The notes below the pieces were generated by a model, which saw only the letters and a program-made list of their open reading frames with translations, did not search any database and was not told where the DNA came from. Below, piece after piece: positions 1-45,707 of a stretch of 64,000 bases of DNA (position 1 is its first letter; each line of letters begins with the position of its first letter). The translations under genes and the position numbers were made by a program. The stretch comes from Escherichia coli. GTDB taxonomy: Bacteria > Pseudomonadota > Gammaproteobacteria > Enterobacterales > Enterobacteriaceae. Location: assembly GCF_013122565.1 (NCBI RefSeq), contig NZ_CP053258.1, one strand, 5' to 3'.

Positions 1-1
1 G

Positions 2-907
2 ATTCGTTGCCATCCGTACGTGCTGGAAGAGATGGAAGCGGCGAAGAACAATGACGTCAACGCGTTCGATAAACTGTTGTTCAAACATATCGGTCACGTC
101 GGTAGCAACAAAGTTCGCAGCTTCTGGCTGGGCCTGACGCGCGGTTTAACCAGCAGCACGCCAACCGGCGATGCCACTAAACGCTACTATCAGCACCTGA
201 ACCGCCTGAGCGCCAACCTCGCCCTGCTTTCTGATGTCTCGATGGCAGTGCTGGGCGGCAGCCTGAAACGTCGTGAGCGTATCTCGGCACGTCTGGGTGA
301 TATTTTAAGCCAGCTTTACCTCGCCTCTGCCGTTCTGAAGCGTTATGACGACGAAGGCCGTAATGAAGCCGATCTGCCGCTGGTGCACTGGGGCGTACAG
401 GATGCGCTGTATCAGGCAGAACAGGCGATGGACGATTTACTGCAAAACTTCCCGAACCGCGTGGTTGCCGGGCTGCTGAATGTGGTGATCTTCCCGACCG
501 GACGTCATTATCTGGCACCGTCTGACAAGCTGGATCATAAAGTGGCGAAGATTTTACAAGTGCCGAATGCCACCCGTTCACGTATTGGTCGCGGTCAGTA
601 CCTGACGCCAAGCGAGCATAACCCGGTTGGTTTACTGGAAGAGGCGCTGGTGGATGTAATTGCCGCCGACCCAATTCATCAGCGGATCTGTAAAGAGCTG
701 GGTAAAAACCTGCCGTTTACCCGTCTGGATGAACTGGCGCACAACGCGCTGGCGAAGGGGCTGATTGATAAAGATGAAGCCGCTATTCTGGTGAAAGCTG
801 AAGAAAGCCGTCTGCGCAGTATTAACGTTGATGACTTTGATCCGGAAGAGCTGGCGACGAAGCCGGTAAAGTTGCCGGAGAAAGTGCGGAAAGTTGAAGC
901 CGCGTAA
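2..907 (+). CDS. fadE: acyl-CoA dehydrogenase FadE, C-terminal part (gene starts upstream of window)
   Basis: ORF 20..907 frame is open to the window edge; translation recalled as FadE C-terminus; synteny with ivy and yafV. Confidence 0.85.
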
Positions 908-949
908 TTGAATAACGGAGCCGAAAGGCTCCGTTTCTTTATCGGCTAA

Positions 950-1423
950 TTATTTAAAATTAAAGCCATCCGGATGGTTTTCCAGGCTGCCGGTCAACGC
1001 CGCGAACAGCACCGTTTTACCATCAATCGAAAGCGCATCGTTCACATTCAACCAGGTGAGTTTCTCTTGCGACGTTTTCTCATCAATAGTCGAGAACAGC
1101 CCCGTCATCTGATTAGATTTCTCGGACCACATCACAGCGATACGTTGCGAGCCACAGTCATGCGGTTTGCACGCGCTCATCACCTGATACGTCTCATCTC
1201 CCAACGTTACGGTTTGTGCGGGAGTATAAGTACCGCCTTTCATCACCCAGGCAGGCAGCTTATGCCCTTGCACCATCTGATTAAACGCAGCTTTGGTGGT
1301 TTCGCCCTTTGCAAGGCTGCTAATGGTTAAATCATCCTGCGCCATTGCACTGGTGGCGATGACCAGAGCGGCGACTGTCGTTATTGCCTTAAACATCATT
1401 CCTCCCGGGCTTATCCTGCCCAT
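950..1423 (-). CDS. ivy: inhibitor of vertebrate lysozyme Ivy, periplasmic
   Basis: 157 aa ORF with N-terminal signal peptide; sequence recalled as Ivy; conserved position next to fadE. Confidence 0.9.
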   Translation of the reverse strand: MGRISPGGMMFKAITTVAALVIATSAMAQDDLTISSLAKGETTKAAFNQMVQGHKLPAWVMKGGTYTPAQTVTLGDETYQVMSACKPHDCGSQRIAVMWSEKSNQMTGLFSTIDEKTSQEKLTWLNVNDALSIDGKTVLFAALTGSLENHPDGFNFK

Positions 1424-1567
1424 GTTATTAACCTCCTAAAGCCTGGCGATAACACGATAATTTGCAAATCAGATATTTCCAATATCAGCATTTGTTATCA
1501 ATTTATTCTGCGCTAAGGCAACTGCCTGATAAGGTGTTAAAGTTATAAAACCCTTCGCATAAAGGAG

Positions 1568-2347
1568 TTGTACACCGTGCCTGGTTTGAAGATTACGCTT
1601 TTGCAGCAACCACTGGTGTGGATGGATGGTCCTGCCAACCTGCGCCATTTTGATCGTCAACTGGAAGGTATTACCGGGCGCGATGTGATCGTTCTACCGG
1701 AGATGTTTACCAGCGGCTTTGCCATGGAAGCGGCAGCTTCGTCGCTAGCACAAGATGACGTAGTGAACTGGATGACAGCTAAGGCGCAGCAGTGCAATGC
1801 GCTGATTGCAGGCAGTGTTGCATTACAAACGGAGTCTGGTTCGGTTAACCGCTTTTTGCTGGTTGAGCCGGGCGGCACGGTACATTTTTATGATAAGCGT
1901 CATCTGTTCCGCATGGCAGATGAGCATCTACATTATAAAGCGGGCAATGCGCGAGTGATTGTGGAATGGCGCGGCTGGCGTATTTTGCCGTTGGTGTGCT
2001 ACGACTTACGTTTTCCGGTGTGGTCGCGCAATCTCAACGATTATGACCTCGCCATCTACGTTGCCAACTGGCCTGCTCCGCGCTCTCTGCACTGGCAGGC
2101 CTTGCTGACAGCCCGCGCGATTGAGAATCAGGCGTATGTGGCGGGATGCAATCGCGTCGGCAGCGATGGCAACGGCTGCCATTATCGCGGTGACAGCCGG
2201 GTGATTAACCCGCAGGGCGAGATTATCGCTACTGCCGACGCGCATCAGGCAACACGCATTGATGCGGAGCTGTCGATGGTGGCATTGCGGGAATATAGAG
2301 AAAAGTTTCCGGCATGGCGGGATGCGGATGAGTTTAGGTTGTGGTGA
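1568..2347 (+). CDS. yafV: nitrilase-family omega-amidase YafV (2-oxoglutaramate amidase)
   Basis: 259 aa ORF; true start may be the GTG at 1577 (VPGLKITLLQQ); carbon-nitrogen hydrolase family; K-12 synteny. Confidence 0.85.
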   Translation: MYTVPGLKITLLQQPLVWMDGPANLRHFDRQLEGITGRDVIVLPEMFTSGFAMEAAASSLAQDDVVNWMTAKAQQCNALIAGSVALQTESGSVNRFLLVEPGGTVHFYDKRHLFRMADEHLHYKAGNARVIVEWRGWRILPLVCYDLRFPVWSRNLNDYDLAIYVANWPAPRSLHWQALLTARAIENQAYVAGCNRVGSDGNGCHYRGDSRVINPQGEIIATADAHQATRIDAELSMVALREYREKFPAWRDADEFRLW

Positions 2348-2449
2348 GTGGGTGTTGTGTTTAAGGCCGGGGAAGACTACGAAAGCCCCTAACTTAAACA
2401 CAATATTACGCCAGAAGTCACCATTTCCAAAACACAGCGCCGCTGTACC

Positions 2450-2683
2450 GTGGGTTATCTGCCCAACCGCAGCGACACGCCGGTGATCAAAATCAGCGCC
2501 AAATGGCTGAGAGAAGCGGGATTTGCGATCGGCACGGGCGTTACCGTGAGGATCTCGGAAGGCTGCCTGATCCTGCTTGCGGATAACAACGAAGTACAGG
2601 AACTGCGCAGGGAACTTTATCAGGTTAAACAGTCAGTTAAGGGGATGCGTGACGGGATGTTTAGTGTGCTGAACGAGAGTTAA
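2450..2683 (+). pseudogene. SymE-like (AbrB-fold type I toxin family) gene lacking an ATG start; possible GTG start at 2450
   Basis: Translation ...VIKISAKWLREAGFAIGTGVTVRISEGCLILLAD resembles the SymE C-terminal core; in-frame stop at 2396 and no ATG upstream. Confidence 0.5.
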
Positions 2684-2690
2684 ATAATAA

Positions 2691-2724
2691 AAAGCCGGGA
2701 AGATTTTATTTCCTACCCGGCTTT
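2691..2724. terminator. bidirectional hairpin between convergent SymE-like gene and immunity gene
   Basis: aaagccggg ... cccggcttt inverted repeat flanked by A and T runs. Confidence 0.45.
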
Positions 2725-2729
2725 TAACA

Positions 2730-3179
2730 TTAATGCTTCAAGGGGAATGACTTCATCAGTAATTCTTCTAAAGAAGAATATAAAAATTCCATTTCATAAG
2801 AGTCATGCAGAAAAACAAATATCTTACCATCTGTATTCATAAGAATAGGGTTTCCGCAGCCATCATCTGAAATAGCATAAAATGAATTCAATATATTTTT
2901 ATCAAGATCTTTATATATTTCCCTAAACTTCAGAGTAAGATCAACTACAGAAGCCTTTCCTACTAAGGAACCATTTTTAAAGGCATGTATAGCTATGCCA
3001 CCAAAGGCCCCACCAAATTTCTTAATAAACTCAATATATTGTATATTGAATTTAATATTTAATATTTTTTCAGCCTGAATGATCTCCTCATCAGAAGCTG
3101 GTATACCATATAGGACCATATCTTGGTCAGATGTTATCTCATCTCTGACTCTTGCTAGCAATTCTTCATTCATACGCAA
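2730..3179 (-). CDS. putative immunity protein (SMI1/KNR4, SUKH-like) for orphan rhs module 4
   Basis: 149 aa AT-rich ORF directly downstream of and overlapping the rhs tip; SUKH-like pattern. Confidence 0.55.
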   Translation of the reverse strand: MRMNEELLARVRDEITSDQDMVLYGIPASDEEIIQAEKILNIKFNIQYIEFIKKFGGAFGGIAIHAFKNGSLVGKASVVDLTLKFREIYKDLDKNILNSFYAISDDGCGNPILMNTDGKIFVFLHDSYEMEFLYSSLEELLMKSFPLKH

Positions 3180-4297
3180 CCGCCCCCTCTATTGCTTAAA
3201 ACTTTTTCAGCTTGTGATTTCCAGAATTCTTTTTTCCACAGGTTAAATTCTTGACGATTATTTATACCTGAACCTTTTTTATTTCCATTTGGGTGCTGAC
3301 CAGCGTTATTTGTACTTGAACCATGATGTTTATCTGGCATAGCAGTAATTGGCCCTTGTGATTGCTGCCTGTCATGGTGCAATACTATTACATTCCCTTG
3401 CCTATCGCTCGGAGATAAACCAAATGGATGAGGAGCATCATCACTGTTCATAAAAATAATTCTATTAAGCTCGGAATCACTTAAGTGACTTAAATCCGTG
3501 TAACCTGATACATCTAAAGTTAATCCTCTGCTATCAGTAAAAGTAACAGTTAAACCCAGAGGATCGATCCAACTTATTGGATTAGGCGCATATTGGTATA
3601 AGTTTATCCCACCCGCCAGCCCTATCGGGTCCTGACTGATAAACCTCCCGCACTCCGGCGCATAATACCTGAACAGATTGTAATGCAGTCCCGTCTCTTC
3701 ATCATAATACTGCCCCGGCAGCCGCAGCGGTTGCTCAAAGTACGCCCCGCTGTTGCTGATGTCGCCCCGGTTTTCACCAAATCCCGCCTGATAGCCCGCC
3801 CACACCAGCGTCCCGTCCGCCGCGGTCACCTCCTGTACCGTGCCCGTCAGGTCCGTGTGGTAATACCAGATTTTTTGACTCTCTCCGCGCCCGGTGATGG
3901 CGGCCACCGGCGTGTACGGCTGTTCCGCGTCGTACAGGTATGTCCGCTTTCCCTGCCACGTTGTCTCCTGCAACAGCCGGAACCCTTCCCACACAAACGT
4001 TGTCCGGCTTCGTTCTCCCCGGTCGGTATGGAGATTGCTGGTCGCCTTGCTGATGCGCCTGCCCAGCGCATCATACTGATACCGCGTCTCGCTGTTGCTG
4101 CTGATGACCCGCGTTAACTGACCCTGCGCGTTCCACTCCAGCTGTTGGTCCCTGCGCTCTGTCAGTTCGCCCCATTCGTTATAGCGGTAACGGTCACGCC
4201 CGTAGCCCGGCAGGCGGTTATCCGGCACCGCTCCCTGATGCTCATCCGTCAGCAGGTTGCCCGCTTTGTCGTAATAATAATGGTCATGGTCGTACAT
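3170..4297 (-). CDS. orphan Rhs C-terminal fragment 4: core repeat, DPLGL, His-rich HNH-like tip
   Basis: About 0.75 kb near-identical to the 3' core of the main rhs (homology to ~4335), then a divergent tip with VLHHDRQQSQGP...KHHG; no N-terminus of its own. Confidence 0.7.
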   Translation of the reverse strand: MYDHDHYYYDKAGNLLTDEHQGAVPDNRLPGYGRDRYRYNEWGELTERRDQQLEWNAQGQLTRVISSNSETRYQYDALGRRISKATSNLHTDRGERSRTTFVWEGFRLLQETTWQGKRTYLYDAEQPYTPVAAITGRGESQKIWYYHTDLTGTVQEVTAADGTLVWAGYQAGFGENRGDISNSGAYFEQPLRLPGQYYDEETGLHYNLFRYYAPECGRFISQDPIGLAGGINLYQYAPNPISWIDPLGLTVTFTDSRGLTLDVSGYTDLSHLSDSELNRIIFMNSDDAPHPFGLSPSDRQGNVIVLHHDRQQSQGPITAMPDKHHGSSTNNAGQHPNGNKKGSGINNRQEFNLWKKEFWKSQAEKVLSNRGGGCV

Positions 4298-4376
4298 CTG
4301 CCCCGTGCGACTGGTCAGCCAGCCGCTGCGATCATACGCAAAATGCCCCCATCCGCATGCAAGCAGTATTTATCCT

Positions 4377-4682
4377 TTAGGAAAAGAGATTTATAGCTTT
4401 CTCTTGAAGTTCTATACCTATATCCTCAAGTTTGATCAGCTCGTCCTTACTGTACATTCCCTCCCGAAAAGAAAACATTCCATATACATCCATTAGTGCC
4501 AATCCTAAAACTTTTGGAACCATAATTTCATCAGCATATATTTCCGCCAAAAAATCCAGCGCCTTATATAATTCTTCAATTTCATTATCAAAAAAATCTT
4601 TCTTGAGTCTTAATCTAACAGGTATTGAATCATCTCCTAATAATTTATCGACCACTATTTTCAATGCAATCTCTTTATCCAT
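4377..4682 (-). CDS. putative immunity protein for orphan rhs module 3
   Basis: 101 aa AT-rich ORF immediately downstream of the orphan toxin tip. Confidence 0.45.
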   Translation of the reverse strand: MDKEIALKIVVDKLLGDDSIPVRLRLKKDFFDNEIEELYKALDFLAEIYADEIMVPKVLGLALMDVYGMFSFREGMYSKDELIKLEDIGIELQEKAINLFS

Positions 4683-4698
4683 ATATCATTTCCTGTCT

Positions 4699-6315
4699 TT
4701 AACAAGATCTAATAGCATTTGATGGGACATGGCCTTCCACAAGTACTTCTCCAGAACTAACTGCATAGTTACGGGCTGGTCCTTTTAATCCAGCATCCGT
4801 TGCTTTCTCTACCGTGGATAAGTCAATAATATTCCGATTACCTTTAACATCAGGAATAACATCGTCAGTATCAAATGTAACTGTAGTTTGGCCTGGTTCA
4901 CGGTATCGTACTGCTACATATTCATTTACGGTAGTTGAAATGAATTGTGAGCCTTTAAACGAATCATTACTACCATTTCTAACATGACCAGCAGCGCTCA
5001 TTCCTCGCCCCGGGTTCTTTGCAGATAGCCCCTCACTAATAGATTCATCCGCACGAATATTTCGAAATACCTTGATTAAGCCAAGAGGATCAATCCAGCT
5101 AATCGGATTCGGCGCATACCTGTAAAGATTCAGACCGCCACGGATCGAAATCGGATCCTGACTGATAAACCTCCCGCACTCCGGCGCATAATACCTGAAC
5201 AGATTGTAATGCAGCCCCGTCTCTTCATCATAATACTGCCCCGGCAGCCGCAGTGGTTGCTCAAAGTACGCCCCGCTGTTGCTGATGTCGCCCCGGTTTT
5301 CGCCAAATCCCGCCTGGTAGCCCGCCCACACCAGCGTCCCGTCCGGCGCGGTCACCTCCTGTACCGTGCCCGTCAGGTCCGTGTGGTAATACCAGATTTT
5401 TTGACTCTCTCCGCGCCCCGTGATGGCTGCCACCGGCGTGTACGGCTGTTCCGCGTCGTACAGGTATGTCCGCTTCCCCTGCCACGTTGTCTCCTGTAAC
5501 AGCCGGAACCCTTCCCACACAAACGTCGTCTGCCGCTGTTCCCTCTGGTCCGTATGGCGGCCATATGTCGCCTTGCTGATGCGCCTGCCCAGCGCATCAT
5601 ACTGATACCGCGTCTCGCTGTTGCTGCTGATGACCCGCGTTAACTGGCCCTGCGCGTTCCACTCCAGTTGCTGGTCCCTGCGCTCTGTCAGTTCGCCCCA
5701 TTCGTTATAGCGGTAGCGGTCACGCCCGTAGCCCGGCAGGCGGTTATCCGGCACCGCTCCCTGATGCTCATCCGTCAGCAGATTGCCCGCTTTGTCGTAA
5801 TAATAATGGTCATGGTCGTACATCTGACCCGTGCGACTGGTCAGCCAGCCGCTGCGGTCATAGCTGAACACCAGGCAACCGCGCAGTTTGTCATTGATGC
5901 CGCCGACTTCACCGTCTGCGTTCCAGATATAATCCCGCGCTGTCACGCTGTCTTTCTGCGCCGGGGGGTTACCGGCCTGCTGCGGATTCTGGCTGCCGCC
6001 TGGCAGGCTGCGCTGCCAGCTTAACCGGTTATCGGCGTTGTAGCCGCTGAACGTCGCCAGTTTCCCCTGGGTGCGCATCACCTGACGGTGCAGGCTGTCA
6101 CGCTCATATTCACTGACCGTGATACCGTCCAGTGCCGTCTGGAGCAGATGCCCGCTGCCGTAGTAAAGATGGCTGAGATGCTGCCCGTCCGGCAGGGTAA
6201 TGCCGGTGGGATTGCCCAGCGCGTCACGCTGATATTTTATGCTGCCGTGCACGCTGTGCTCTGCCGTCAGCCAGCCGCTGCGGTCATACGCAAAACGCAC
6301 CGTGTCCGCCTGCAA
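4699..6315 (-). CDS. orphan Rhs C-terminal fragment 3: core repeat, DPLGL, ADP-ribosyltransferase-like tip
   Basis: About 1.4 kb rhs core homology; tip has VFRNIRAD...SQFISTT...GEVLVEG, resembling the pertussis-toxin S1 R / STS / E pattern. Confidence 0.7.
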   Translation of the reverse strand: MQADTVRFAYDRSGWLTAEHSVHGSIKYQRDALGNPTGITLPDGQHLSHLYYGSGHLLQTALDGITVSEYERDSLHRQVMRTQGKLATFSGYNADNRLSWQRSLPGGSQNPQQAGNPPAQKDSVTARDYIWNADGEVGGINDKLRGCLVFSYDRSGWLTSRTGQMYDHDHYYYDKAGNLLTDEHQGAVPDNRLPGYGRDRYRYNEWGELTERRDQQLEWNAQGQLTRVISSNSETRYQYDALGRRISKATYGRHTDQREQRQTTFVWEGFRLLQETTWQGKRTYLYDAEQPYTPVAAITGRGESQKIWYYHTDLTGTVQEVTAPDGTLVWAGYQAGFGENRGDISNSGAYFEQPLRLPGQYYDEETGLHYNLFRYYAPECGRFISQDPISIRGGLNLYRYAPNPISWIDPLGLIKVFRNIRADESISEGLSAKNPGRGMSAAGHVRNGSNDSFKGSQFISTTVNEYVAVRYREPGQTTVTFDTDDVIPDVKGNRNIIDLSTVEKATDAGLKGPARNYAVSSGEVLVEGHVPSNAIRSC

Positions 6316-6488
6316 CTAGCTGTTCAGATGGTGAATTTAACTACACCTTCTGGTTATCACCGTATTCAAGTGCCGCGATGCAACTACTGGGAAACTACAC
6401 TCATTCTCTTATTATTTTTAGAAATTTTCATCTATTAAATAATACACATGACCGATATTATTTAACCCTGCTGGGTATAACTGAAAAA

Positions 6489-7340
6489 TTATTTATTTTT
6501 AATTAAATTCATTAAATCCCAAACATTGCTATCATAATGATTGAAACCTTGAATCACAAGATAAGACAATGCTTTCATATCCAACAAAAATCTGATTTTC
6601 CCGTCTATAATTTTTGTATTTTCCGTTATAAACAATCGTTCCAATTTAACAAGATTACTTATTTTAGCTACGCTTGGAATATCACCCATTTTTGAAAAAG
6701 ATATTTTTTTAATTGAAGGTAATTTACTTACATCTTCAATGATTGACACTGCCATTTTTTTGCATAAAGATAAAGACACTTCTTCTATATTTTTCAAACC
6801 ATCTAAAAAAGTCGTGTCCGAAGCCTTAGATAATCCAGATAACTTGATGCTCCTTAAAGTCTTGATAGATGATAAATTAGGGATTGTTTGAATATTGCTA
6901 TTTTTTATCTCTAATGATTGCAAGAATGATCTCCCCGCAACATGCTCTTTTTTTTCTTTAAAATCTATCAATGTTATTTTTTCCAGAGTTCTGTGATTAA
7001 ACAAATTATCAATTCCATTTCGACCTATTAATACAGCCTCTTTTAAAAATGGGAAATATGATAAATCAAGTCTCATTTTATCATCATTCAAAAGATGGAT
7101 GAGTTGTATTTTTTTCAACGAATACAGTTGTGATATATCCTTTATTTTATTGCCTGTGATATATATTTCATTAATGAAATTAATTTCATCAAGAAATGAT
7201 AAATCAGTTATAAGCGGTGACAAAACCAACCCGTTAACTTTCTTTTCCTTCATCGTGTCAACAATATGACTTGTATCGTCATGCTTTTCATACACAAGGA
7301 CACGACTTCCCCGTACACCATAATTTTCCACTAGTCTCAT
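6489..7340 (-). CDS. putative immunity protein, leucine-rich-repeat-like, for orphan rhs module 2
   Basis: 283 aa AT-rich ORF with repeated L-rich segments, directly downstream of the orphan tip. Confidence 0.45.
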   Translation of the reverse strand: MRLVENYGVRGSRVLVYEKHDDTSHIVDTMKEKKVNGLVLSPLITDLSFLDEINFINEIYITGNKIKDISQLYSLKKIQLIHLLNDDKMRLDLSYFPFLKEAVLIGRNGIDNLFNHRTLEKITLIDFKEKKEHVAGRSFLQSLEIKNSNIQTIPNLSSIKTLRSIKLSGLSKASDTTFLDGLKNIEEVSLSLCKKMAVSIIEDVSKLPSIKKISFSKMGDIPSVAKISNLVKLERLFITENTKIIDGKIRFLLDMKALSYLVIQGFNHYDSNVWDLMNLIKNK

Positions 7341-7359
7341 ATATTTCCCCTTAAATAAA

Positions 7360-8820
7360 TCAACACTCCCCCTTCACTCTAAAATCTTGATCTGAAACAT
7401 TTCCTGTATTTGGTGGTCGTTTTTCATTACTGGTTACTCCTCTTCCTCCATTTTTAGCTATTTTCATTGCCTCTAAATTATTTAGCCATTGTTTACTAAT
7501 TCCAGCATATTTATCAAAATTCAACGAATCCAACATTGCCTGAGTTAACTTTCCACTTCGGGCATGTTGCAACATTCTCTGATATAGATTTTTTGTTTGA
7601 CCTGCATACATTTTACCCGCACCTTCATCAAAAAACTCATAAATTGCTTGCCCTTTATATTTTGCAGTAACATCTCTTATTTGTTCTAAAAAATCACTAG
7701 CGAGTCTTACTAATCCCCAAGGATCAATCCACCTCAGCGGATTCGGCGCATACCTGTAAAGATTCAGCCCACCCCGGATCGAAATCGGGTCCTGGCTTAT
7801 GAACCTTCCGCACTCCGGCGCATAATACCTGAACAGATTGTAATGCAGCCCCGTCTCTTCATCATAATACTGCCCCGGCAGCCGCAGCGGTTGCTCAAAG
7901 TACGCCCCGCTGTTGCTGATGTCGCCCCGATTTTCTCCAAATCCCGCCTGGTAGCCCGCCCACACCAGCCTCCCGTCCGGCGCGGTCACCTCCTGTACCG
8001 TGCCCGTCAGGTCCGTGTGGTAATACCAGATTTTTTGACTCTCTCCGCGCCCGGTGATGGCCGCCACTGGCGTGTACGGCTGTTCCGCGTCGTACAGGTA
8101 TGTCCGCTTTCCCTGCCACGTTGTCTCCTGCAACAGCCGGAACCCTTCCCACACAAACGTCGTCCGCCGCTGTTCCCTCTGGACCGTATGGCGGCCATAT
8201 GTCGCCTTGCTGATGCGCCTGCCCAGCGCATCATACTGATACCGCGTCTCGCTGTTGCTGCTGATGACCCGCGTTAACTGGCCCTGCGCGTTCCACTCCA
8301 GTTGCTGGTCCCTGCGCTCTGTCAGTTCGCCCCATTCGTTATAGCGGTAACGGTCACGCCCGTAGCCCGGCAGGCGGTTATCCATCACCGCGCTCTGATA
8401 CTCGTCCGTCAGCAGATTGCCCGCTTTGTCGTAATAATAATGGTCATGGTCGTACATCTGCCCCGTGCGGCTGGTCAGCCAGCCGCTGCGGTCATACGCA
8501 AAGCGCACCGTGTCCGCCTGCATGTGGTGCAGCCGTTCCCCTTCTTTCGTCGGGGTGAGCGTCACTTCCGTTATCTGGTCAAGACGGTTGTAGCTGAAGG
8601 TCCGTGTACTGTGCTGCGTGTCACTGCGCAACAGGCGGCCCAGCGCATCACGCTCCTGCCGCTCATTACGCCCCCCGCCTTCTGTACCCTGCGTCTGGAT
8701 GATGACCGGATACCCGCCCGCATTCAGCGCCAAATGGCTGAGAGAAGCGGGATTTGAGATCGGCACGGGCGTTACCGTGAAGATCTCGGAGGGATGTCTG
8801 ATCCTGCTTGCGGATAACAA
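7360..8820 (-). CDS. orphan Rhs C-terminal fragment 2: core repeat, DPWGL, GIY-YIG-like tip
   Basis: About 1.1 kb rhs core homology; tip has AIYEFFDEGAGKMYAGQTKNLYQRMLQH; the first ~30 codons are antisense to the SymE-like remnant. Confidence 0.7.
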   Translation of the reverse strand: MLSASRIRHPSEIFTVTPVPISNPASLSHLALNAGGYPVIIQTQGTEGGGRNERQERDALGRLLRSDTQHSTRTFSYNRLDQITEVTLTPTKEGERLHHMQADTVRFAYDRSGWLTSRTGQMYDHDHYYYDKAGNLLTDEYQSAVMDNRLPGYGRDRYRYNEWGELTERRDQQLEWNAQGQLTRVISSNSETRYQYDALGRRISKATYGRHTVQREQRRTTFVWEGFRLLQETTWQGKRTYLYDAEQPYTPVAAITGRGESQKIWYYHTDLTGTVQEVTAPDGRLVWAGYQAGFGENRGDISNSGAYFEQPLRLPGQYYDEETGLHYNLFRYYAPECGRFISQDPISIRGGLNLYRYAPNPLRWIDPWGLVRLASDFLEQIRDVTAKYKGQAIYEFFDEGAGKMYAGQTKNLYQRMLQHARSGKLTQAMLDSLNFDKYAGISKQWLNNLEAMKIAKNGGRGVTSNEKRPPNTGNVSDQDFRVKGEC

Positions 8821-8914
8821 CGAAGTACAGGAACTGCGCAGGGAGCTTTATCAGGTTAAACAGGCAGTTAAGGGGATGCGGGACGGGATGTTTAGTGTGC
8901 TGAACGAAAGTTAA
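8729..8914 (+). pseudogene. SymE-like 3' remnant (last ~62 codons) fused to an rhs-fragment boundary
   Basis: Near-identical to 2497..2683; homology to the first copy starts abruptly at the junction with rhs-core sequence (~8728). Confidence 0.45.
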
Positions 8915-8922
8915 ATAATAAA

Positions 8923-8955
8923 AAAGCCGGGAAGGTAAATAAGCTTCCCGGCTTT
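8923..8955. terminator. bidirectional intrinsic terminator hairpin
   Basis: 12 bp perfect stem aaagccgggaag / cttcccggcttt with 9 nt loop, flanked by A-run and T-run. Confidence 0.6.
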
Positions 8956-8975
8956 CCACAACAATTTTAACTTAA

Positions 8976-9464
8976 TTAATCATAAGCATCGCCGTAATTT
9001 TCATATTTCCAATAAATATATTTACCACCTGAGCTATATAATTTATGCAATAATTCTGTAAAAGTCATTGCAATAATTGGACAACTACCTACAACGCCAT
9101 GTATCTCATAATTGCTATCATAACAGCGTCCATTTCTTTCTGTAGAAAAATCAATGGATAAATAATCATTATTATCGGTCCTGCAAATTAAGTACCATGA
9201 AGATGATATATCATCCTCACATGGCTCACCAACTATAAATTTATTTGCCTGTAATATTTCATTATTTTTCAAAATAGTGAAGGAGATTTCCTGCTCTTCA
9301 GAGCAAAACAATTTTATTCCATTACATATTTTGTAAAAACGAACAACATCATCAGGATATTTTAAATAATCAGATGGTAATAAAGGCAAATTACCATCTG
9401 GTGGAATAACTTCACATCTGTTATCATTTTTTATCAAGTCAAGTAATTCATCAATGCCATTCAT
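8976..9464 (-). CDS. putative immunity protein (SUKH-like) for orphan rhs module 1
   Basis: 162 aa AT-rich ORF downstream of the orphan tip; LLPSDYLKY...FYKICNG pattern. Confidence 0.5.
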   Translation of the reverse strand: MNGIDELLDLIKNDNRCEVIPPDGNLPLLPSDYLKYPDDVVRFYKICNGIKLFCSEEQEISFTILKNNEILQANKFIVGEPCEDDISSSWYLICRTDNNDYLSIDFSTERNGRCYDSNYEIHGVVGSCPIIAMTFTELLHKLYSSGGKYIYWKYENYGDAYD

Positions 9465-9473
9465 ATTACCACC

Positions 9474-11312
9474 TTAAAAAATAACAGTATCAAACTTCCC
9501 AGAGTATATAAACTGGTTCAATGCCCGGTAATATGCTTCCCTACTGGCAACAGGAACATTTGCGGCATCAAACATTCGTTCAGTAAGATCTTTCATTTCT
9601 CTGCTACTTACTGTTGTCCAATCCACTTTCCCACCAACTCTTCTTCCGGTTTTCTGCTCTAACCAATCTCTATATACTTTTTTTGTTGCAGCATGATTAG
9701 CCTCGGATAATGCAATTGTTGGTGACTTTGAAGGATATTTCCCTCCATAAGATGGCACATTCTTAGACATCCAAATATCAAGCACACCATGATGGTTTTC
9801 TAAAGAGGAATTAATTGGTCGATAAGGAACAACATCAAACTCTTTAACTTCACCGCACTTAAGTCCAAGGGGATCTATCCACCCCAGCGGATTCGGCGCA
9901 TAAGCATACTGGTTCAGCCCACCCGCCAGCCCTATCGGGTCCTGGCTTACGAACCGCCCGCACTCCGGCGCATAATACCTGAACAGATTATAGTGCAGCC
10001 CCGTCTCTTCATCATAATACTGCCCCGGCAGCCGCAGCGGCTGTTCAAAGTACGCCCCGCTGTTGCTGATATCGCCCCGGTTTTCGCCAAATCCCGCCTG
10101 GTAGCCCGCCCACACCAGCGTCCCGTCCGCCGCGGTCACCTCCTGTACCGTGCCCGTCAGGTCCGTGTGGTAATACCAGATTTTTTGACTCTCTCCGCGC
10201 CCCGTGATGGCGGCCACCGGCGTGTACGGCTGTTCCGCGTCGTACAGGTATGTCCGCTTTCCCTGCCACGTTGTCTCCTGCAACAGCCGGAACCCTTCCC
10301 ACACAAACGTTGTCCGGCTTCGTTCTCCCCGGTCCGTATGGCGGCCATATGTCGCCTTGCTGATGCGCCTGCCCAGCGCATCATACTGATACCGCGTCTC
10401 GCTGTTGCTGCTGATGACCCGCGTTAACTGGCCCTGCGCGTTCCACTCCAGCTGCTGGTCCCTGCGCTCTGTCAGTTCGCCCCATTCGTTATAGCGGTAG
10501 CGGTCACGCCCGTAGCCCGGCAGGCGGTTATCCATCACCGCTCCCTGATATTCATCCGTCAGCAGGTTGCCCGCTTTATCGTAATAATAATGGTCATGGT
10601 CATACATCTGCCCCGTGCGGCTGGTCAGCCAGCCGCTGCGGTCATAGCTGAACACCAGGCAACCGCGCAGTTTGTCATTGATGCCGCCGACTTCACCGTC
10701 TGCGTTCCAGATATAGTCCCGCGCTGTCACGCTGTCGCTGTGTGACGGGGGTGTGGCTGTCTGCTGTGGGTTCTGGCTGCCGCCTGGCAGGCTGCGCTGC
10801 CAGCTTAACCGGTTGTCGGCGTTGTAGCCGCTGAACGTCGCCAGTTTCCCCTGGGTGCGCATCACCTGACGGTGCAGACTGTCACGCTCATATTCACTGA
10901 CCGTGATACCGTCCAGTGCCGTCTGGAGCAGATGTCCGCTGCCGTAGTAAAGATGGCTGAGGTGCTGCCCGTTCGGTAACGTGATGTCGGTGGGATTGCC
11001 CAGCGCGTCACGCTGATATTTTATGCTGCCGTGCACGCTGTGCTCTGCCGTCAGCCACCCGCTGCGGTCATACGCAAAGCGCACCGTGTCCGCCTGCATG
11101 TGGTGCAGCCGTTCCCCTTCTTTCGTCGGGGTGAGCGTCACTTCCGTTATCTGGTCAAGACGGTTGTAGCTGAAGGTCCGTGTACTGTGCTGCGTGTCAC
11201 TGCGCAACAGGCGGCCCAGCGCATCACGCTCCTGTCGCTCATTACGCACCCCGCCTTCTGTACCCTGCGTCTGGATGATGACCGGATACCCGCCCGCATT
11301 CAGCACAAACAT
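9474..11312 (-). CDS. orphan Rhs C-terminal fragment 1: core repeat, DPLGL, unassigned toxin tip
   Basis: About 1.6 kb homologous to main rhs (to ~11476, where an in-frame stop precedes it); first ATG at 11312; tip ~130 aa with no recognizable motif. Confidence 0.7.
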   Translation of the reverse strand: MFVLNAGGYPVIIQTQGTEGGVRNERQERDALGRLLRSDTQHSTRTFSYNRLDQITEVTLTPTKEGERLHHMQADTVRFAYDRSGWLTAEHSVHGSIKYQRDALGNPTDITLPNGQHLSHLYYGSGHLLQTALDGITVSEYERDSLHRQVMRTQGKLATFSGYNADNRLSWQRSLPGGSQNPQQTATPPSHSDSVTARDYIWNADGEVGGINDKLRGCLVFSYDRSGWLTSRTGQMYDHDHYYYDKAGNLLTDEYQGAVMDNRLPGYGRDRYRYNEWGELTERRDQQLEWNAQGQLTRVISSNSETRYQYDALGRRISKATYGRHTDRGERSRTTFVWEGFRLLQETTWQGKRTYLYDAEQPYTPVAAITGRGESQKIWYYHTDLTGTVQEVTAADGTLVWAGYQAGFGENRGDISNSGAYFEQPLRLPGQYYDEETGLHYNLFRYYAPECGRFVSQDPIGLAGGLNQYAYAPNPLGWIDPLGLKCGEVKEFDVVPYRPINSSLENHHGVLDIWMSKNVPSYGGKYPSKSPTIALSEANHAATKKVYRDWLEQKTGRRVGGKVDWTTVSSREMKDLTERMFDAANVPVASREAYYRALNQFIYSGKFDTVIF

Positions 11313-11517
11313 CCGTATCAGACCGTCCGGGCGCTGTTCTCCCGTCAGCCGTCCGTCCGCATCGTGACTGAACCGGTAAAGCGCTCCGTTGCCGTTGCTC
11401 AGACTGGCAATCCATCCCTCCGCGGTATAATGCCAGCGCGTCTCCCGTTTCTCTTCATCCGTGTGGCACGCCAGTTAACATACGTCTACTGACAAAACCA
11501 TTAGTCCAAACAAAATC

Positions 11518-16474
<4,957 letters not shown>

Positions 16475-16497: not shown

Positions 16498-18711
16498 TTA
16501 TTCAGAAACGTCCGGGGTAGGTAACGGGGCAATATCATCCGCAGTCATGGCTGTGCCGCCATCCGGATTCATATCAATGCCACTGCCAATGAGTTGCATA
16601 ACATCGCTGGTGTGCAGTAAAAGTTGTTTTCCGCAAAACTCAATCGAGCCATCCTTGTGTAATACAAGCGCTGCATTGCCGCAACGAAGGGTAAATTGAT
16701 CGCCAACATCCAGACGATATGTCGTTCCGACATTGATGGTTTGAGCCAGTTTGACGGAAAGACCATCATTTTTTGTGATGGTGGCATTACGGTCTTCTCC
16801 CACGCTGATGGTTTCATTTTTGACAATGGTTTTTATGCGATCGACCATGACCGTGTGGGTTTCATTGTTTTTTACCGTGGTATTGAGGTCTTTTTCCGCA
16901 TGGAACTTCACCTCTTCTGCCCCCGTTTTATCGTCAAAGCGCAGCATGTTTCCGTTGGTCGGCCCGCCATACAGCGAGTGGCTGAATATCCCGCTCTGCG
17001 AGGCCATACCCGGCAGTCCCCACGGCGGCATGGTGTCCTGGTTATAGGTGCGCCCTACAATGATCGGTAAATCCGGGTCGCCGTTTTTGAAATCCACCAG
17101 CACTTCCTGACCGATGCGCGGGATCTGGATCATGCCGAATCCTTTCCCTGCCCACGGATAGCTGACGCGGATCCAGCAGGAGCTGTTTTCGTCATTATTA
17201 CCGTAACGATCCCAGCCAAACTGCACCTTCACCCGTCCATATTTGTCCGTCCAGATTTCCTGCCCCGCCGGGCCGGTGACGATGGCGCTCTGCGGGCCTT
17301 TGGTGTGGGGTTTGCTCAGGGTTCGCTGTGGGCGGTAAACTTCGCTGGTTGGGTGCAGTTCAAACGTGGTGACATAGGTAAAATGCTGATCCTGGCCGCT
17401 GTGCTGCGCATTGTCCCGTAAAAACAGCGTGGTCTGTACCAGCAGGTATTCCTGATTAATTTCTGCCGTCGGGTGATTCATCAATGTAAAGGTGTACCCG
17501 GTCATGAGGGTACGGATATGACCGGCCCCATGTGCCCGGCTGCCTGGGCTACGCTGCGCTTCCATACGAATACGCGTCAACATCTCGCCTTCGCCCGTAG
17601 TGAAGTAATCACCAGGCCATTCGTAATGCTCGTATTCAGCATGACCGGTATCACGCGGACTGGCCACGGTACTTTTAAGCAGCGAACGAGGCTTCATAAA
17701 ATCAAAATCGTCCATCACCCACTTTCCAGTACGCAGCCTCTCACTGGCCGTAATGGTGTGAATAAATTCCTTATCCAGTTTCAGCCCTTCCTGGTGCCAC
17801 TCCACCAGTGGCGAGTCAGGGCACGCTTTATGACCATTGATGGCATCCGCCAGCACCAGCGTGTGGCTGTTCTCGCTGTGCTCAAACCACCAGTAAATTC
17901 CCCACTCCTGCATCAGGCGCTGGATGAAATCAAAATCCGTTTCACCGTACTGTACCTGCCAGGCACGAGGTGGATAATTTTCCACCAGCCGTTTTTCCAC
18001 CGGAAAGGAATATTCATCCAGTACTTCATCGAGAATATCCACCACGGTTTTATTCTGGAACGCTTTGTAGTCGCTGGTGTGGGTCAGCAGTTTCAGCCAC
18101 GGTTCAATGCGTAATTCATACGTTACCGAGCGGCCCTCATGGCCCACCACCCGCGCCGCTGTCACCAGCCCGCTGATATGCCGTTTGCCGCCGCCGTCCA
18201 GTTCGATATTGACGCACAGATCTTTGCCCACCATGGGCTGAAGCGGCAGGTTAGCAGCGGGGGAAACGTACCCCAGGTTCAGGGCGTCCGGCGTTTTAAG
18301 CTGTACTGTGTAGGAAAACAGATTCCCAAGCCCTTCCGAACCATTCATGCCTGCAAACAAAAGCATCTGCGGCGGCACCGCACTACCACTTACTGTGACG
18401 TTATGCGCCCCCGGACCACCTGCAGCAAGCGACGCCGCCGCATCCTGAACTGCACCAGCCATATCCGATATCCCTGCTGCGGCGGCTGCGGCTTGCGCAG
18501 CAGCTACTGCGGCTTTAACCAGACCTGACGGTTCCGGCAACGCACCAAACAGGTCCGCCGCTGCCTGTTCTACCATCTGCTCGGCTGCATCAGCTACATC
18601 GGTTGCGGCTGAACCAGGGCTTATACCACCACTTTCGCCAGCTATTGGTGGTGTGGTGATGACGGGTCCACCGTTTCCAACTGGTTTATTACCCGTAGAT
18701 ACAAAACTCAT
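16498..18711 (-). CDS. vgrG: VgrG spike protein (TssI) with ~95 aa Ala/Gly/Pro-rich N-terminal extension
   Basis: gp27/gp5-like motifs ([39 protein letters not shown]); AAGGAG RBS 7 nt before ATG at 18711. Confidence 0.9.
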
Positions 18712-20032: not shown

Positions 20033-20794
20033 CTACACCTGCCAGGCGCGGGGGGGATAATTTTCCACCAGCCGTTTTTCCACCGGAAAGGAATATTCAT
20101 CCAGTACTTCATCGAGAATATCCACCACGGTTTTATTCTGGAATGCTTTGTAGTCGCTGGTATGGGTCAGCAGCTTCAGCCATGGCTCAATGCGTAATTC
20201 ATACGTTACCGAACGGCCCTCATGGCCGACCACCCTCGCCGCCGTCACCAGCCCGCTGATATACCGTTTTCCGCCACCGTCCAGTTCAATGTTGACGCAC
20301 AGGTCTTTGCCCACCATGGGCTGAAGCGGCAGGTTAGCAGCGGGGGAAACGTACCCCAGGTTCAGGGCGTCCGGCGTTTTAAGCTGTACTGTGTAGGAAA
20401 ACAGATTCCCAAGCCCTTCCGAACCATTCATGCCTGCAAACAAAAGCAGCTGCGGCGGCACCGCACTACCACTTACTGTGACGTTATGCGCCCCCGGTCC
20501 ACCGGCAGCAATCGACGCCGCCGCATCCTGAACTGCACCAGCCATATCCGATATCCCTGCTGCGGCGGCTGCGGCTTGCGCAGCAGCTACTGCGGCTTTA
20601 ACCAGACCTGACGGTTCCGGCAACGCACCAAACAGGTCCGCCGCTGCCTGTTCTACCATCTGCTCGGCTGCATCAGCGACATCGGTTGCGGCTGAACCAG
20701 GGCTTATACCACCACTTTCGCCAGCTATTGGTGGTGTGGTGATGACGGGTCCACCGTTTCCAACTGGTTTATTACCCGTAGATACAAAACTCAT
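20033..20794 (-). pseudogene. truncated vgrG 5' duplicate (first ~253 codons with identical RBS and start)
   Basis: Near-identical to 17950..18711 including the Ala-rich extension; homology ends ~20025. Confidence 0.7.
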
Positions 20795-22180: not shown

Positions 22181-22294
22181 TATCCAGTCGCAACGCATCC
22201 ACATACCGCCCCCTTGCTGTTCTGCTGCCAGAACCATCCATGCCCCTGCTGCGCCTGCGTTAACATTTTTGCTAGCCAGCACGGTCACGGCAGG
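22181..22294. repeat. ~115 bp duplicate of the tagF 3' coding end
   Basis: Near-identical to 23271..23385; lies between the Tge/Tgi pair and HExxH effector 2. Confidence 0.6.
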
Positions 22295-23255: not shown

Positions 23256-24029
23256 TTAATGCTGCCGGATATCCAGCCGCAACGCATCCACATACCGCCC
23301 CTCGCTGTTCTGCTGCCAGAACCAGCCCTGCCCCTGCTGCGCCTGCGTCAGCATTTTGTCCGGCCAGCCCGGCCACGGCAGGTGGCGCACACCGGGCAGT
23401 TCCACTACCGGCACGTCCGGCAGGCCGGTGAGTTCCCGGCTACGCTGCGGTACACGTCGTAAGCCGCGTAGCCACTGCGCCCAGCGCGGCCCCGGTCGCC
23501 ACATCGCCCAGAGCTGGTCTGTCTGCTCCGCCAGTCGACCGCAGCGTTCTGTCTGTGGTGAGACATGAGCTGCCGTCAACTGCGCCAGCCAGTACAGCCA
23601 GCCCTTTGTGTCATCCAGGCTCTCTTCCAGCCATTCCCGCCCGGCACGCTGGTAAATCACCAGTGGCCACGACCTGCCCGTACTGTCACGTGAGGCGGTC
23701 AGCACCCCGGTCAGCCACTCATCGCGCCCGCCAATGGGGAGAAATCCCGGCGATAATACAAAGCTCCACGGTAGCGGATGGTGTTCCGGCACCTCCGTTT
23801 TCTCGCGCGGTGACAGGTGCATCCAACCGTCATTTACTCCGGTTTTCGCAGCATCCGTTCCTTCCGGCAGAACAATATGCCGCCCCTGTCCCAGCCACGT
23901 CTGCTGGTTCAGCCACGCCTGCCACACCTGCCCATCGTTCGCGCTCACCCGCCAGCGCACGTAGTCCCGCTGATCCGGCAGTCTGCCGAACATCGCCGGA
24001 ACCGATACCACCGCAGCCCGGCGCATCAC
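23256..24029 (-). CDS. tagF: type VI secretion-associated protein TagF (DUF2094)
   Basis: 257 aa; FGRLPDQRDYV N-terminal motif; overlaps tssM stop. Confidence 0.75.
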   Translation of the reverse strand: MMRRAAVVSVPAMFGRLPDQRDYVRWRVSANDGQVWQAWLNQQTWLGQGRHIVLPEGTDAAKTGVNDGWMHLSPREKTEVPEHHPLPWSFVLSPGFLPIGGRDEWLTGVLTASRDSTGRSWPLVIYQRAGREWLEESLDDTKGWLYWLAQLTAAHVSPQTERCGRLAEQTDQLWAMWRPGPRWAQWLRGLRRVPQRSRELTGLPDVPVVELPGVRHLPWPGWPDKMLTQAQQGQGWFWQQNSEGRYVDALRLDIRQH

Positions 24030-45630: not shown

Positions 45631-45707
45631 TGGCGGAACGGACGGGACTCGAACCCGCGACCCCCTGCGTGACAGGCAGGTATTCTAACCGACTGAACTA
45701 CCGCTCC
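45631..45707 (-). tRNA. aspV: tRNA-Asp (GUC)
   Basis: Exact 77 nt match to the E. coli tRNA-Asp sequence including CCA (reverse complement). Confidence 0.97.

What the first reader, a model, noticed from the sequence alone, without database searches (positions are those of the whole stretch)
2450..11476. Array of four promoterless orphan rhs tip/immunity modules
Downstream of the main rhs are four units, each with 0.75-1.6 kb of near-identical rhs 3' core, a DPxGL motif, a distinct tip and a small AT-rich immunity ORF. None has its own Rhs N-terminus; orphan 1 is preceded by an in-frame stop at ~11476. The long core repeats are substrates for homologous recombination that could swap the main toxin tip. 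Boundaries of orphans 3 and 4 fall on the same internal core motif (cagccgctgcggtcatacgcaaa), suggesting repeated capture at a preferred site.
Basis: partly seen in the sequence, partly recalled or inferred. Interest (0 to 1): 0.6.

Follow-up and report, generated by a model that had tools for sequence, protein, structure and literature searches.

The report
Rhs orphan toxin–immunity array
Downstream of a type VI secretion Rhs toxin gene lie four leftover toxin-tip and immunity cassettes, a well-described arrangement in enterobacteria that records past toxin swaps and can seed new ones.

Summary
On the minus strand, vgrG, an Eag-type chaperone gene, a 1379-aa PAAR-Rhs gene and its immunity gene are followed by four orphan modules. 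Each module has a 5'-truncated rhs core (0.79-1.6 kb, 92-97% identical to the main core), a PxxxxDPxGL motif, an unrelated toxin tip and an AT-rich immunity ORF. This matches the Rhs orphan arrays described by Jackson 2009, Poole 2011 and Koskiniemi 2014, here at the yafV end of the Escherichia T6SS-1 island.

Comparison with other E. coli supports displacement and recombination. Orphan tip 3 sits on the full-length Rhs in strain LHM10-1. The window's main deaminase tip is an orphan in strain XJ34. Junctions travel with the upstream immunity gene while downstream tips differ. The main and orphan-3 cores are 99.8% identical over their last 433 nt.

Two sub-claims need correction. "Promoterless" is unproven: all five copies carry a homologue of the Salmonella internal P2 promoter. 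The cited motif is present in all five copies. It is a 23-nt internal direct repeat and the junction of a 426-nt in-frame deletion in orphans 2 and 4. Orphans 3 and 4 do begin at the same core nucleotide, about 20 nt upstream of the motif.

This is an ordinary new member of a known kind.

The parts
16498..18711 (-). vgrG (T6SS spike), 737 aa
   Evidence: NCBIfam TIGR03361 E=2e-166
16031..16474 (-). DcrB-related / Eag-type chaperone gene between vgrG and rhs
   Evidence: ORF. The collinear gene in E. coli is annotated 'DcrB-related protein'. There is no NCBIfam hit.
11871..16010 (-). Main full-length PAAR-Rhs gene, 1379 aa. Its tip (11871-12257) is deaminase-like.
   Evidence: NCBIfam RHS_core, YD repeats, Rhs_assc_core and a weak PAAR match. 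Pfam Deam_C E=3.6e-14 for the tip.
11518..11877 (-). Main immunity ORF (119 aa, GC 0.31). It overlaps the rhs stop by 7 nt.
11475..11477 (-). In-frame TAA directly upstream of the orphan 1 core
9474..11474 (-). Orphan 1: core 9871-11474 (main-equivalent 12268-13871) plus a Tox-SHH nuclease tip at 9474-9860
   Evidence: Pfam Tox-SHH E=2.1e-25.
8976..9464 (-). imm1, 162 aa, SMI1/KNR4 (SUKH)
   Evidence: Pfam E=2.6e-5
8724..8965 (+). 5'-truncated SymE-family fragment between imm1 and orphan 2, read as the scar of a former locus end
   Evidence: 89% identical to 2493-2734. NCBIfam SymE E=2.2e-8. The same junction is present in E. coli PapRG-06-5.
7360..8728 (-). Orphan 2: core 8474-8728 plus 7710-8496, with a 426-nt in-frame deletion. 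The tip (7360-7710) is weakly GIY-YIG-like.
   Evidence: Pfam GIY-YIG E=0.0019 and TIGR01453 E=2e-4.
6489..7340 (-). imm2, 283 aa, leucine-rich-repeat-like
   Evidence: weak LRR hits
4699..6314 (-). Orphan 3: core 5087-6314 (main-equivalent 12268-13495) plus a tip of unknown family at 4699-5076
   Evidence: Weak DUF7587 E=0.016. PDB 9zdm_B 'Probable Rhs-family protein' E=0.002.
4377..4682 (-). imm3, 101 aa
   Evidence: It is 99% identical to the immunity gene after the main Rhs of E. coli LHM10-1.
3170..4361 (-). Orphan 4: core 3548-4336 plus an eroded 5' stretch to about 4361. It has the same 426-nt deletion as orphan 2 and the same 5' end as orphan 3. The tip (3170-3550) is an LHH nuclease.
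   Evidence: Pfam LHH E=1.4e-8.
2730..3173 (-). imm4, SMI1/KNR4. Its ATG overlaps the tip stop codon (ATGA).
   Evidence: Pfam E=8.6e-14
2450..2683 (+). SymE-family gene at the yafV end of the island. It is not part of an orphan module.
   Evidence: NCBIfam SymE E=1.3e-10. Annotated as SymE family in E. coli.
12324..12431 (-). Homologue of the Salmonella internal P2 promoter in the main core. Equivalent copies lie at 9927-10034, 7777-7884, 5143-5250 and 3617-3724.
   Evidence: 86-90% identity to the published 108-nt P2 sequence (PMC7043789)
13021..13043 (-). 23-nt internal direct repeat of the core (YDRSGWLT codons). The second copy is at 13447-13469. It is the junction of the deletion in orphans 2 and 4.

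Best explanation
This is a standard Rhs orphan array at the distal (yafV) end of the Escherichia T6SS-1 island.

The main PAAR-Rhs protein is loaded on VgrG with an Eag-type chaperone. It carries a deaminase-like toxin behind the PxxxxDPxGL autocleavage motif. Each time a new tip/immunity cassette recombined into the core of the main gene, the resident tip and immunity gene were pushed downstream with only part of the core. Four such displaced modules remain.
- Orphan 1: SHH nuclease tip with a SUKH immunity protein.
- Orphan 2: GIY-YIG-like tip with an LRR-like immunity protein.
- Orphan 3: tip of unknown family.
- Orphan 4: LHH nuclease tip with a SUKH immunity protein.

The modules lack the N-terminal PAAR and shell, so their toxins cannot be exported as they stand. 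They keep immunity genes that may protect against kin strains carrying those toxins. Their cores share exact runs of 59-489 bp with the main gene. RecA-dependent recombination could therefore fuse any orphan tip in frame to the main gene, or convert sequence between copies.

Shown here: the anatomy, the homology, purifying-selection signatures, mosaicism, and the exchange of main and orphan positions between strains.

Inferred: toxicity, immunity, export, and actual switching in this strain.
For: - Anatomy and homology.
- Tip and immunity families.
- T6SS context (VgrG, PAAR, RHS core, TssM, ClpV, TssC).
- Core divergence is mostly synonymous. dN/dS is 0.11-0.22 and dS reaches 0.27. The copies therefore diverged as translated genes in different lineages, not by decay in place.
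- Differences are mosaic. Main and orphan 3 are 99.8% identical over the last 433 nt of core. LHM10-1, which carries the same tip, is 97.0% identical there. This points to gene conversion within the genome.
- Exact-identity runs with the main gene are 489, 176, 434 and 72 bp for orphans 1 to 4.
- Tip 3 plus imm3 (99.6% identical) is the C-terminus of the full-length Rhs behind vgrG in E. coli LHM10-1.
- The window's main tip plus immM is an orphan in XJ34, followed by the same immM-to-core junction.
- The block from the orphan 2 tip to the orphan 4 core is collinear in HCP5S3_I2.
- The imm2-to-core junction is shared with GF3-3, but a different tip follows it there.
- The published framework matches: C-terminal displacement (PMC2935791), functional orphan rhs-CT/rhsI modules (PMC3150448), and main-orphan recombination deploying the orphan toxin (PMC3967940).
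Against: - No expression, toxicity or immunity data exist for this strain.
- Orphan modules decay in other strains. imm2 carries a stop codon in GF3-3 and HCP5S3_I2. Tip 2 carries a stop in HCP5S3_I2. The deaminase tip is truncated in XJ34. Selection on orphans is therefore not universal.
- Orphans 2 and 4 lack 142 codons of core. A crossover in the 255-nt block of orphan 2 upstream of its deletion would produce a shortened Rhs shell.
- No full-length Rhs carrying tip 1, 2 or 4 was seen: none was inspected for tips 1 and 2. The one context inspected for tip 4 (PapRG-06-5) is an orphan. The three 82%-identical tip-4 hits elsewhere in the chromosome were not inspected.
Confidence: 0.85

Rival explanations
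1. The orphan modules are expressed from inside, as type II toxin-antitoxin-like units. A promoter within the core just upstream of PxxxxDPxGL transcribes the tip and immunity gene, which stabilises the locus and modulates growth. They would not be silent cassettes. This is not exclusive of the best explanation.
For: - All five copies carry an 86-90% identical homologue of the Salmonella P2 promoter at the equivalent position.
- The inferred -10 hexamer TACAAT is kept in four copies and is TATAAT in orphan 1.
- P2 activity, its transcription start 89 nt upstream of the motif-coding sequence, and internal toxin expression were shown in Salmonella. P2-like sequences were reported in E. coli (PMC7043789).
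- Each immunity ORF has a Shine-Dalgarno-like sequence and lies -7 to +19 nt from the toxin stop codon.
Against: - The inferred -35 hexamer TTGACG of Salmonella is ATGATG here, 3 of 6 matches to consensus.
- The site fails the consensus promoter scan, which overall is at chance level (18 found, 17.7 expected).
- The Salmonella start codon was not checked for conservation here.
- There are no expression data for this strain.
Confidence: 0.3
2. The array is kept mainly as an immunity island. The immunity genes protect against toxins fired by other strains. The truncated toxin parts are by-products with no role.
For: - E. coli GF3-3, XJ34 and TB06052 have lost most of T6SS-1, including the intact main rhs gene, yet retain several orphan tip/immunity modules at this site.
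- All four orphan immunity ORFs are intact in the window.
- Comparable immunity arrays formed by effector displacement are described in Vibrio cholerae (PMC5361080).
Against: - In the window the toxin tips and their cores are also fully open reading frames.
- In GF3-3 and HCP5S3_I2 it is the immunity gene imm2 that carries a stop codon.
- In Salmonella the ancestral strain did not express enough orphan immunity protein to be protected (PMC3967940).
Confidence: 0.3
3. The modules are inert relics of past displacement events, drifting towards loss.
For: - Homologous modules in other strains carry nonsense mutations or are cut down to 77-163 nt of core.
- The 5' stretch of orphan 4 upstream of the motif is eroded and frameshifted.
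Against: - All eight orphan ORFs in the window are intact.
- Core differences are mostly synonymous.
- Recent gene conversion with the main gene is evident.
Confidence: 0.2
4. Orphans are captured or cut at a preferred site marked by the FAYDRSGW-coding motif.
For: - Orphans 3 and 4 start at the same core nucleotide but have different upstream flanks.
- An XJ34 orphan starts about 20 nt away, at about 13476.
- The motif region is also the junction of the 426-nt deletion in orphans of the window, XJ34 and AR_0077. It is the site of a microhomology junction at 13031 in PapRG-06-5 and TB06052.
Against: - The motif is present in all copies. The 5' ends in 11 loci are spread from 12407 to 15091.
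- Most recurrences are the same junction inherited with its upstream flank.
- A 23-nt direct repeat predicts deletions by ordinary short-homology recombination without any capture mechanism.
- The sample is small and the clustering was noticed after the fact.
Confidence: 0.15

Closest known systems
Rhs orphan rhs-CT/rhsI modules and the C-terminal displacement model (Jackson et al. 2009, PMC2935791; Poole et al. 2011, PMC3150448)
   Same: - A full-length rhs gene is followed in the same orientation by partial-core fragments of varying length.
- Each fragment has the PxxxxDPxGL demarcation, an unrelated low-GC tip and a small downstream ORF.
- Orphan cores belong to the same clade as the main core.
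- Orphan tips are found attached to full-length genes in other strains.
   Different: Nothing differs in kind. Specific to this array are the combination of five tips, a SymE-fragment scar inside the array, and a 426-nt core deletion in two orphans.
Salmonella Typhimurium SPI-6 rhs main/orphan locus (Koskiniemi et al. 2014, PMC3967940; Starsta et al. 2020, PMC7043789)
   Same: - A T6SS-linked PAAR-Rhs gene has downstream orphans that share core sequence.
- The P2 promoter region is conserved at 86-90% identity.
- Recombination between main and orphan would give an in-frame fusion.
   Different: - LT2 has one orphan and the window has four.
- The inferred -35 hexamer of P2 is degenerate here.
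- No experimental evidence exists for this strain.
CDI cdiA-CT/cdiI orphan arrays (Poole et al. 2011) and Vibrio cholerae T6SS immunity arrays (PMC5361080)
   Same: Toxin-tip/immunity cassettes are displaced in series behind an active polymorphic toxin gene, and the immunity genes are retained.
   Different: The delivery protein and demarcation motif differ: VENN in CdiA, and no Rhs core in the V. cholerae auxiliary clusters.

Membership tests
Rhs orphan toxin/immunity module (rhs-CT/rhsI) | Lies downstream of, and in the same orientation as, a full-length rhs gene | tested here: met
   All four orphans lie on the minus strand, 3' of the main rhs gene at 11871-16010.
Rhs orphan toxin/immunity module (rhs-CT/rhsI) | Carries only a 3' fragment of the core and lacks the N-terminal PAAR/trafficking region and a native start codon | tested here: met
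   Homology starts at main-equivalent 13871, 13701, 13495 and about 13495 of a gene that begins at 16010. An in-frame stop or unrelated sequence lies upstream of each.
Rhs orphan toxin/immunity module (rhs-CT/rhsI) | A PxxxxDPxGL motif followed by a divergent C-terminal domain | tested here: met
   PNP(I/L)xWIDP(L/W)GL is present in all five copies. The tips show no mutual similarity. Three of the four orphan tips match toxin domain families, one of them weakly, and the main tip matches Deam_C.
Rhs orphan toxin/immunity module (rhs-CT/rhsI) | A tightly linked downstream immunity ORF | tested here: met
   The ORFs lie -7 to +19 nt from each toxin stop codon and have Shine-Dalgarno-like sequences. 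Two are SUKH/SMI1-KNR4 family.
Rhs orphan toxin/immunity module (rhs-CT/rhsI) | The tip is toxic and is neutralised only by its cognate immunity protein | not testable with these tools
   This needs expression assays.
Rhs orphan toxin/immunity module (rhs-CT/rhsI) | Silent: no promoter or translation start of its own | tested here: inconclusive
   The promoter scan is at chance level. A homologue of the validated Salmonella internal P2 promoter is present in every copy.
C-terminal displacement array (Jackson 2009) | Orphan tips of one strain are attached to the full-length gene in another strain, and the reverse | tested here: met
   Tip 3/imm3 is on the main Rhs of LHM10-1. The window's main tip and immM are an orphan in XJ34.
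C-terminal displacement array (Jackson 2009) | Movement through a circular intermediate made by recombination between cores | tested here: inconclusive
   The model predicts that each junction travels with the upstream immunity gene while the downstream tip varies. This is seen for three junctions. No circle can be observed from an assembly.
T6SS PAAR-Rhs effector (main gene) | PAAR domain, YD-repeat shell and Rhs-associated core, encoded next to vgrG and an Eag (DUF1795-like) chaperone within a T6SS cluster | tested here: met
   NCBIfam gives RHS_core, YD repeats, Rhs_assc_core, PAAR (E=4.7e-7, below the curated cutoff) and VgrG. TssM, ClpV and TssC are found. The chaperone is identified only through the annotation of collinear E. 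coli genes.

The most novel reading that the evidence does not exclude
The 23-nt YD-repeat motif that occurs twice in the core ([10 protein letters not shown] and [10 protein letters not shown] codons) could be a true rearrangement hot spot that sets where orphan cores are cut and deleted.

In the 11 loci examined, several events fall in or within about 20 nt of it. These are two or three independent 5' truncation points, the recurrent 426-nt deletion, and a microhomology junction.

If independent origin were confirmed, it would give a sequence-level rule for how Rhs orphan arrays are built. It would also make the proposed circular-intermediate model directly testable.
Probability: 0.2. Interest if true: 0.35.

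Novelty: new member of a known kind. Interest (0 to 1): 0.2.

Why it matters
The array shows which toxins this lineage has carried and which immunities it retains. It offers a compact natural test bed with five tips and four recombination targets for measuring Rhs tip switching.

It adds no new principle. Arrays of this type, their origin by displacement and their reactivation by recombination are already published.

Three details have modest value:
- Tip 1/imm1 is absent from 5,426 complete E. coli genomes.
- Tip 2 is nearly unique in a database of 5.8 billion proteins.
- The junction analysis supports the displacement model.

Tried and rejected
- NCBIfam on the ten tip and immunity proteins gave almost nothing. 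Pfam gave the assignments that were used.
- Single-sequence AlphaFold of tip 3 failed with mean pLDDT 30.6, so no fold search was run.
- PDB sequence searches gave only a weak hit for tip 3 (9zdm_B, E=0.002) and none for tip 2.
- An exact-match scan of species-representative genomes for the tip 1/imm1 junction found nothing.
- Protein database searches with tips 1 and 2 returned only short or partial proteins. They could not show whether these tips sit on full-length Rhs genes elsewhere.
- The promoter and terminator consensus scan was at chance level and uninformative.
- Rfam and tRNA scans found nothing inside the array.
- In-situ duplication and divergence of the main 3' end was considered and rejected. 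The tips are unrelated, core dS reaches 0.27 with low dN/dS, and the junctions are shared with other strains.
- The antisense ORFs of 61-153 aa on the plus strand inside every core copy were treated as by-products of the GC-rich repeat.
Full report
**What is there**

The region lies on the minus strand. It contains, in order:
- vgrG (16498-18711);
- a small gene whose E. coli counterparts are annotated 'DcrB-related', meaning an Eag-type chaperone (16031-16474);
- a 1379-aa rhs gene (11871-16010);
- a 119-aa ORF that overlaps the rhs stop codon (11518-11877).

NCBIfam confirms VgrG, the RHS core, YD repeats, the Rhs-associated core domain and a weak PAAR match. TssM, ClpV and TssC lie further along the window. 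On the left are yafV, ivy and fadE. A tRNA-Asp gene lies at 45631-45707. This is therefore the T6SS-1 island of Escherichia. The flanks are only about 97.2-97.7% identical to the best of 5,426 complete E. coli genomes, which suggests a divergent lineage.

**Checking the observation**

BLASTN of the main gene against the downstream DNA gives four ungapped core copies.

| Module | Core coordinates | Length | Identity to main |
|---|---|---|---|
| Orphan 1 | 9871-11474 | 1604 nt | 95.8% |
| Orphan 2 | 7710-8496 and 8474-8728 | 787 + 255 nt | 95.2% and 98.8% |
| Orphan 3 | 5087-6314 | 1228 nt | 97.2% |
| Orphan 4 | 3548-4336 | 789 nt | 92.1% |

- Each copy ends with PNPxxWIDP(L/W)GL and then diverges completely into a 116-128 aa tip.
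- No pair of tips or immunity proteins is similar at E<0.1.
- GC drops from about 0.60 in the cores to 0.35-0.42 in the tips and 0.29-0.32 in the immunity ORFs.
- The immunity ORFs start -7 to +19 nt from the toxin stop codons and have Shine-Dalgarno-like sequences.
- A TAA at 11475-11477 abuts the first homologous base of orphan 1.

The description is correct. The lower coordinate, 2450, also takes in a SymE-family gene (2450-2683, plus strand) that is not part of a module.

**Tip and immunity families**

Pfam assigns the domains below.

| Module | Tip | Immunity protein |
|---|---|---|
| Main | Deam_C, E=3.6e-14 | no family |
| Orphan 1 | Tox-SHH nuclease, E=2.1e-25 | SMI1/KNR4 |
| Orphan 2 | GIY-YIG, weak (E=0.0019; NCBIfam TIGR01453 E=2e-4) | weak leucine-rich-repeat matches |
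| Orphan 3 | DUF7587, very weak (E=0.016); solved 'Probable Rhs-family protein' 9zdm_B, E=0.002 | no family |
| Orphan 4 | LHH nuclease, E=1.4e-8 | SMI1/KNR4 |

**The motif and the boundaries**

It is present in all five copies.
- The core contains two copies of a 23-nt exact repeat, at main 13021-13043 and 13447-13469.
- Orphans 2 and 4 both read [10 protein letters not shown]|SRTGQ. They have lost the 426 nt (142 codons, in frame) between the two repeats.
- Orphans 3 and 4 begin homology at the same nucleotide, main-equivalent about 13495, which is 20 nt upstream of the motif. They follow different flanks: imm2 plus 174 nt for orphan 3, and imm3 plus 15 nt for orphan 4.
- The first 20 nt or so of orphan 4 are eroded and carry a 1-nt deletion.
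- Across the window and ten E. coli loci, orphan 5' ends range from main-equivalent 12407 to 15091.
- An XJ34 orphan starts at about 13476 and has the same deletion. An AR_0077 fragment also has the deletion.
- PapRG-06-5 and TB06052 share a microhomology junction at 13031, inside the motif.
- The motif region is thus rearrangement-prone. A 23-nt direct repeat and inheritance of junctions account for most of this without a dedicated capture site.

**History of the copies**

- In the 786-nt block shared by all five copies, dN/dS is 0.11-0.22 and dS reaches 0.27. The cores diverged under purifying selection as parts of translated genes, presumably in different lineages.
- The differences are mosaic.
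- Orphan 1 is almost identical to the main gene over its 5' 800 nt, with a 489-bp exact run. It differs at 28 of the last 100 core positions.
- Orphan 3 is 99.8% identical to the main gene over the last 433 nt of core. The main gene of E. coli LHM10-1, which carries the same tip 3, is only 97.0% identical there. This indicates gene conversion within this genome.
- Every orphan shares exact runs of 72-489 bp with the main gene. From my own knowledge, this is well above the roughly 25-30 bp needed by RecA in E. coli.

**Comparison with other strains**

- The exact array is not found in 5,426 complete E. coli genomes.
- Each cassette is rare among those genomes:
  - tip 1/imm1 in 0 genomes;
  - tip 2/imm2 in 3;
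  - tip 3/imm3 in 6;
  - tip 4/imm4 in 1 at 99.9% identity, plus 3 at 82%;
  - main tip/immM in 2.
- In LHM10-1, tip 3 and imm3 (99.6% identical) form the end of the full-length Rhs behind vgrG. They are followed by the same imm3-to-orphan-4-type junction.
- In XJ34, the window's main tip and immM are an orphan. They are followed by the identical immM-to-core(13871) junction but a different tip.
- HCP5S3_I2 shares a collinear block from tip 2 to the orphan 4 core.
- GF3-3 shares the imm2-to-core(13495) junction, with a different tip after it.
- In three cases, therefore, the junction travels with the upstream cassette while the downstream tip varies. This is what the circular-intermediate model of Jackson et al. 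predicts (PMC2935791).
- A 5'-truncated SymE fragment lies between imm1 and orphan 2 (8724-8965). It is 89% identical to the copy next to yafV. The same junction occurs in PapRG-06-5 behind a different cassette. It marks a former end of the locus.
- Some strains carry decayed versions of these modules.
- GF3-3, XJ34 and TB06052 have lost most of T6SS-1 but keep orphan arrays.

**Expression**

- 'Promoterless' cannot be established from sequence. The consensus scan is at chance level.
- In Salmonella, transcription start sites inside the rhs core, 89 nt upstream of the PxxxxDPxGL codons, drive main and orphan tip and immunity expression (PMC7043789).
- The published 108-nt P2 sequence matches all five copies here at 86-90% identity.
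- From the reported start-site position I infer a -10 hexamer TACAAT and a -35 hexamer TTGACG. The -10 is retained in four copies and is TATAAT in orphan 1. The -35 is ATGATG here.
- Activity in this strain is untested.

**Verdict**

The finding is a correct description of a well-known arrangement: orphan rhs-CT/rhsI modules produced by C-terminal displacement (PMC2935791, PMC3150448). These modules can be redeployed by recombination between the main gene and an orphan (PMC3967940). It is a new member of a known kind.

The corrections are:
- the internal P2-like promoter homologue;
- the 426-nt deletion between 23-nt repeats;
- the exact position of the shared boundary of orphans 3 and 4;
- the SymE scar.

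The only mildly novel lead is that the YD-motif repeat may be a hot spot for rearrangement.

Noticed in passing
window 2450-2683 (+) and 8724-8965 (+): A SymE-family (type I toxin-like) gene sits at the yafV end of the island. A 5'-truncated second copy, 89% identical, lies inside the array between imm1 and the orphan 2 core. The same symE'-to-core junction occurs in E. coli PapRG-06-5 behind a different cassette.
   Followed up: partly
window 20033-20794 (-): A truncated vgrG 5' fragment of 253 aa is about 93% identical in DNA to the start of the intact vgrG (17939-18238). It lies upstream of the vgrG-rhs module together with small unannotated genes. It is conserved in other E. coli and looks like a displacement relic at the vgrG level.
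   Followed up: partly
L003 (GF3-3), L006 (XJ34), L010 (TB06052): These E. coli strains have deleted most of T6SS-1, with rhs core fragments fused to tssF, clpV or tssA remnants. They still keep several orphan tip/immunity modules next to yafV.
   Followed up: partly
window 7360-7710 (-): The orphan 2 tip is almost unique. Only two protein clusters, both from E. coli, matched it in a 5.8-billion-protein database. It has only a weak GIY-YIG signature and is paired with an unusually large 283-aa LRR-like immunity protein.
   Followed up: partly
L004 5680-6015: The last orphan tip of E. coli HCP5S3_I2 is a 37%-identical relative of the window's tip 3. Tip 3 therefore belongs to a polymorphic toxin family that has no confident Pfam assignment.
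   Followed up: no
window 1-2400: The housekeeping flank fadE-ivy-yafV is at best about 97.2-97.7% identical to any of 5,426 complete E. coli genomes. This suggests the window comes from a divergent Escherichia lineage.
   Followed up: no
window 22210-22294 and 23298-23382: An 85-nt direct repeat, 87% identical, lies in the TagF-gene region upstream of the vgrG module. It was not examined.
   Followed up: no
window 43235-43328 (+): ARAGORN calls a 94-nt tRNA-His inside the tssF coding region. Rfam does not support it at the gathering threshold, so it is probably a false positive.
   Followed up: no
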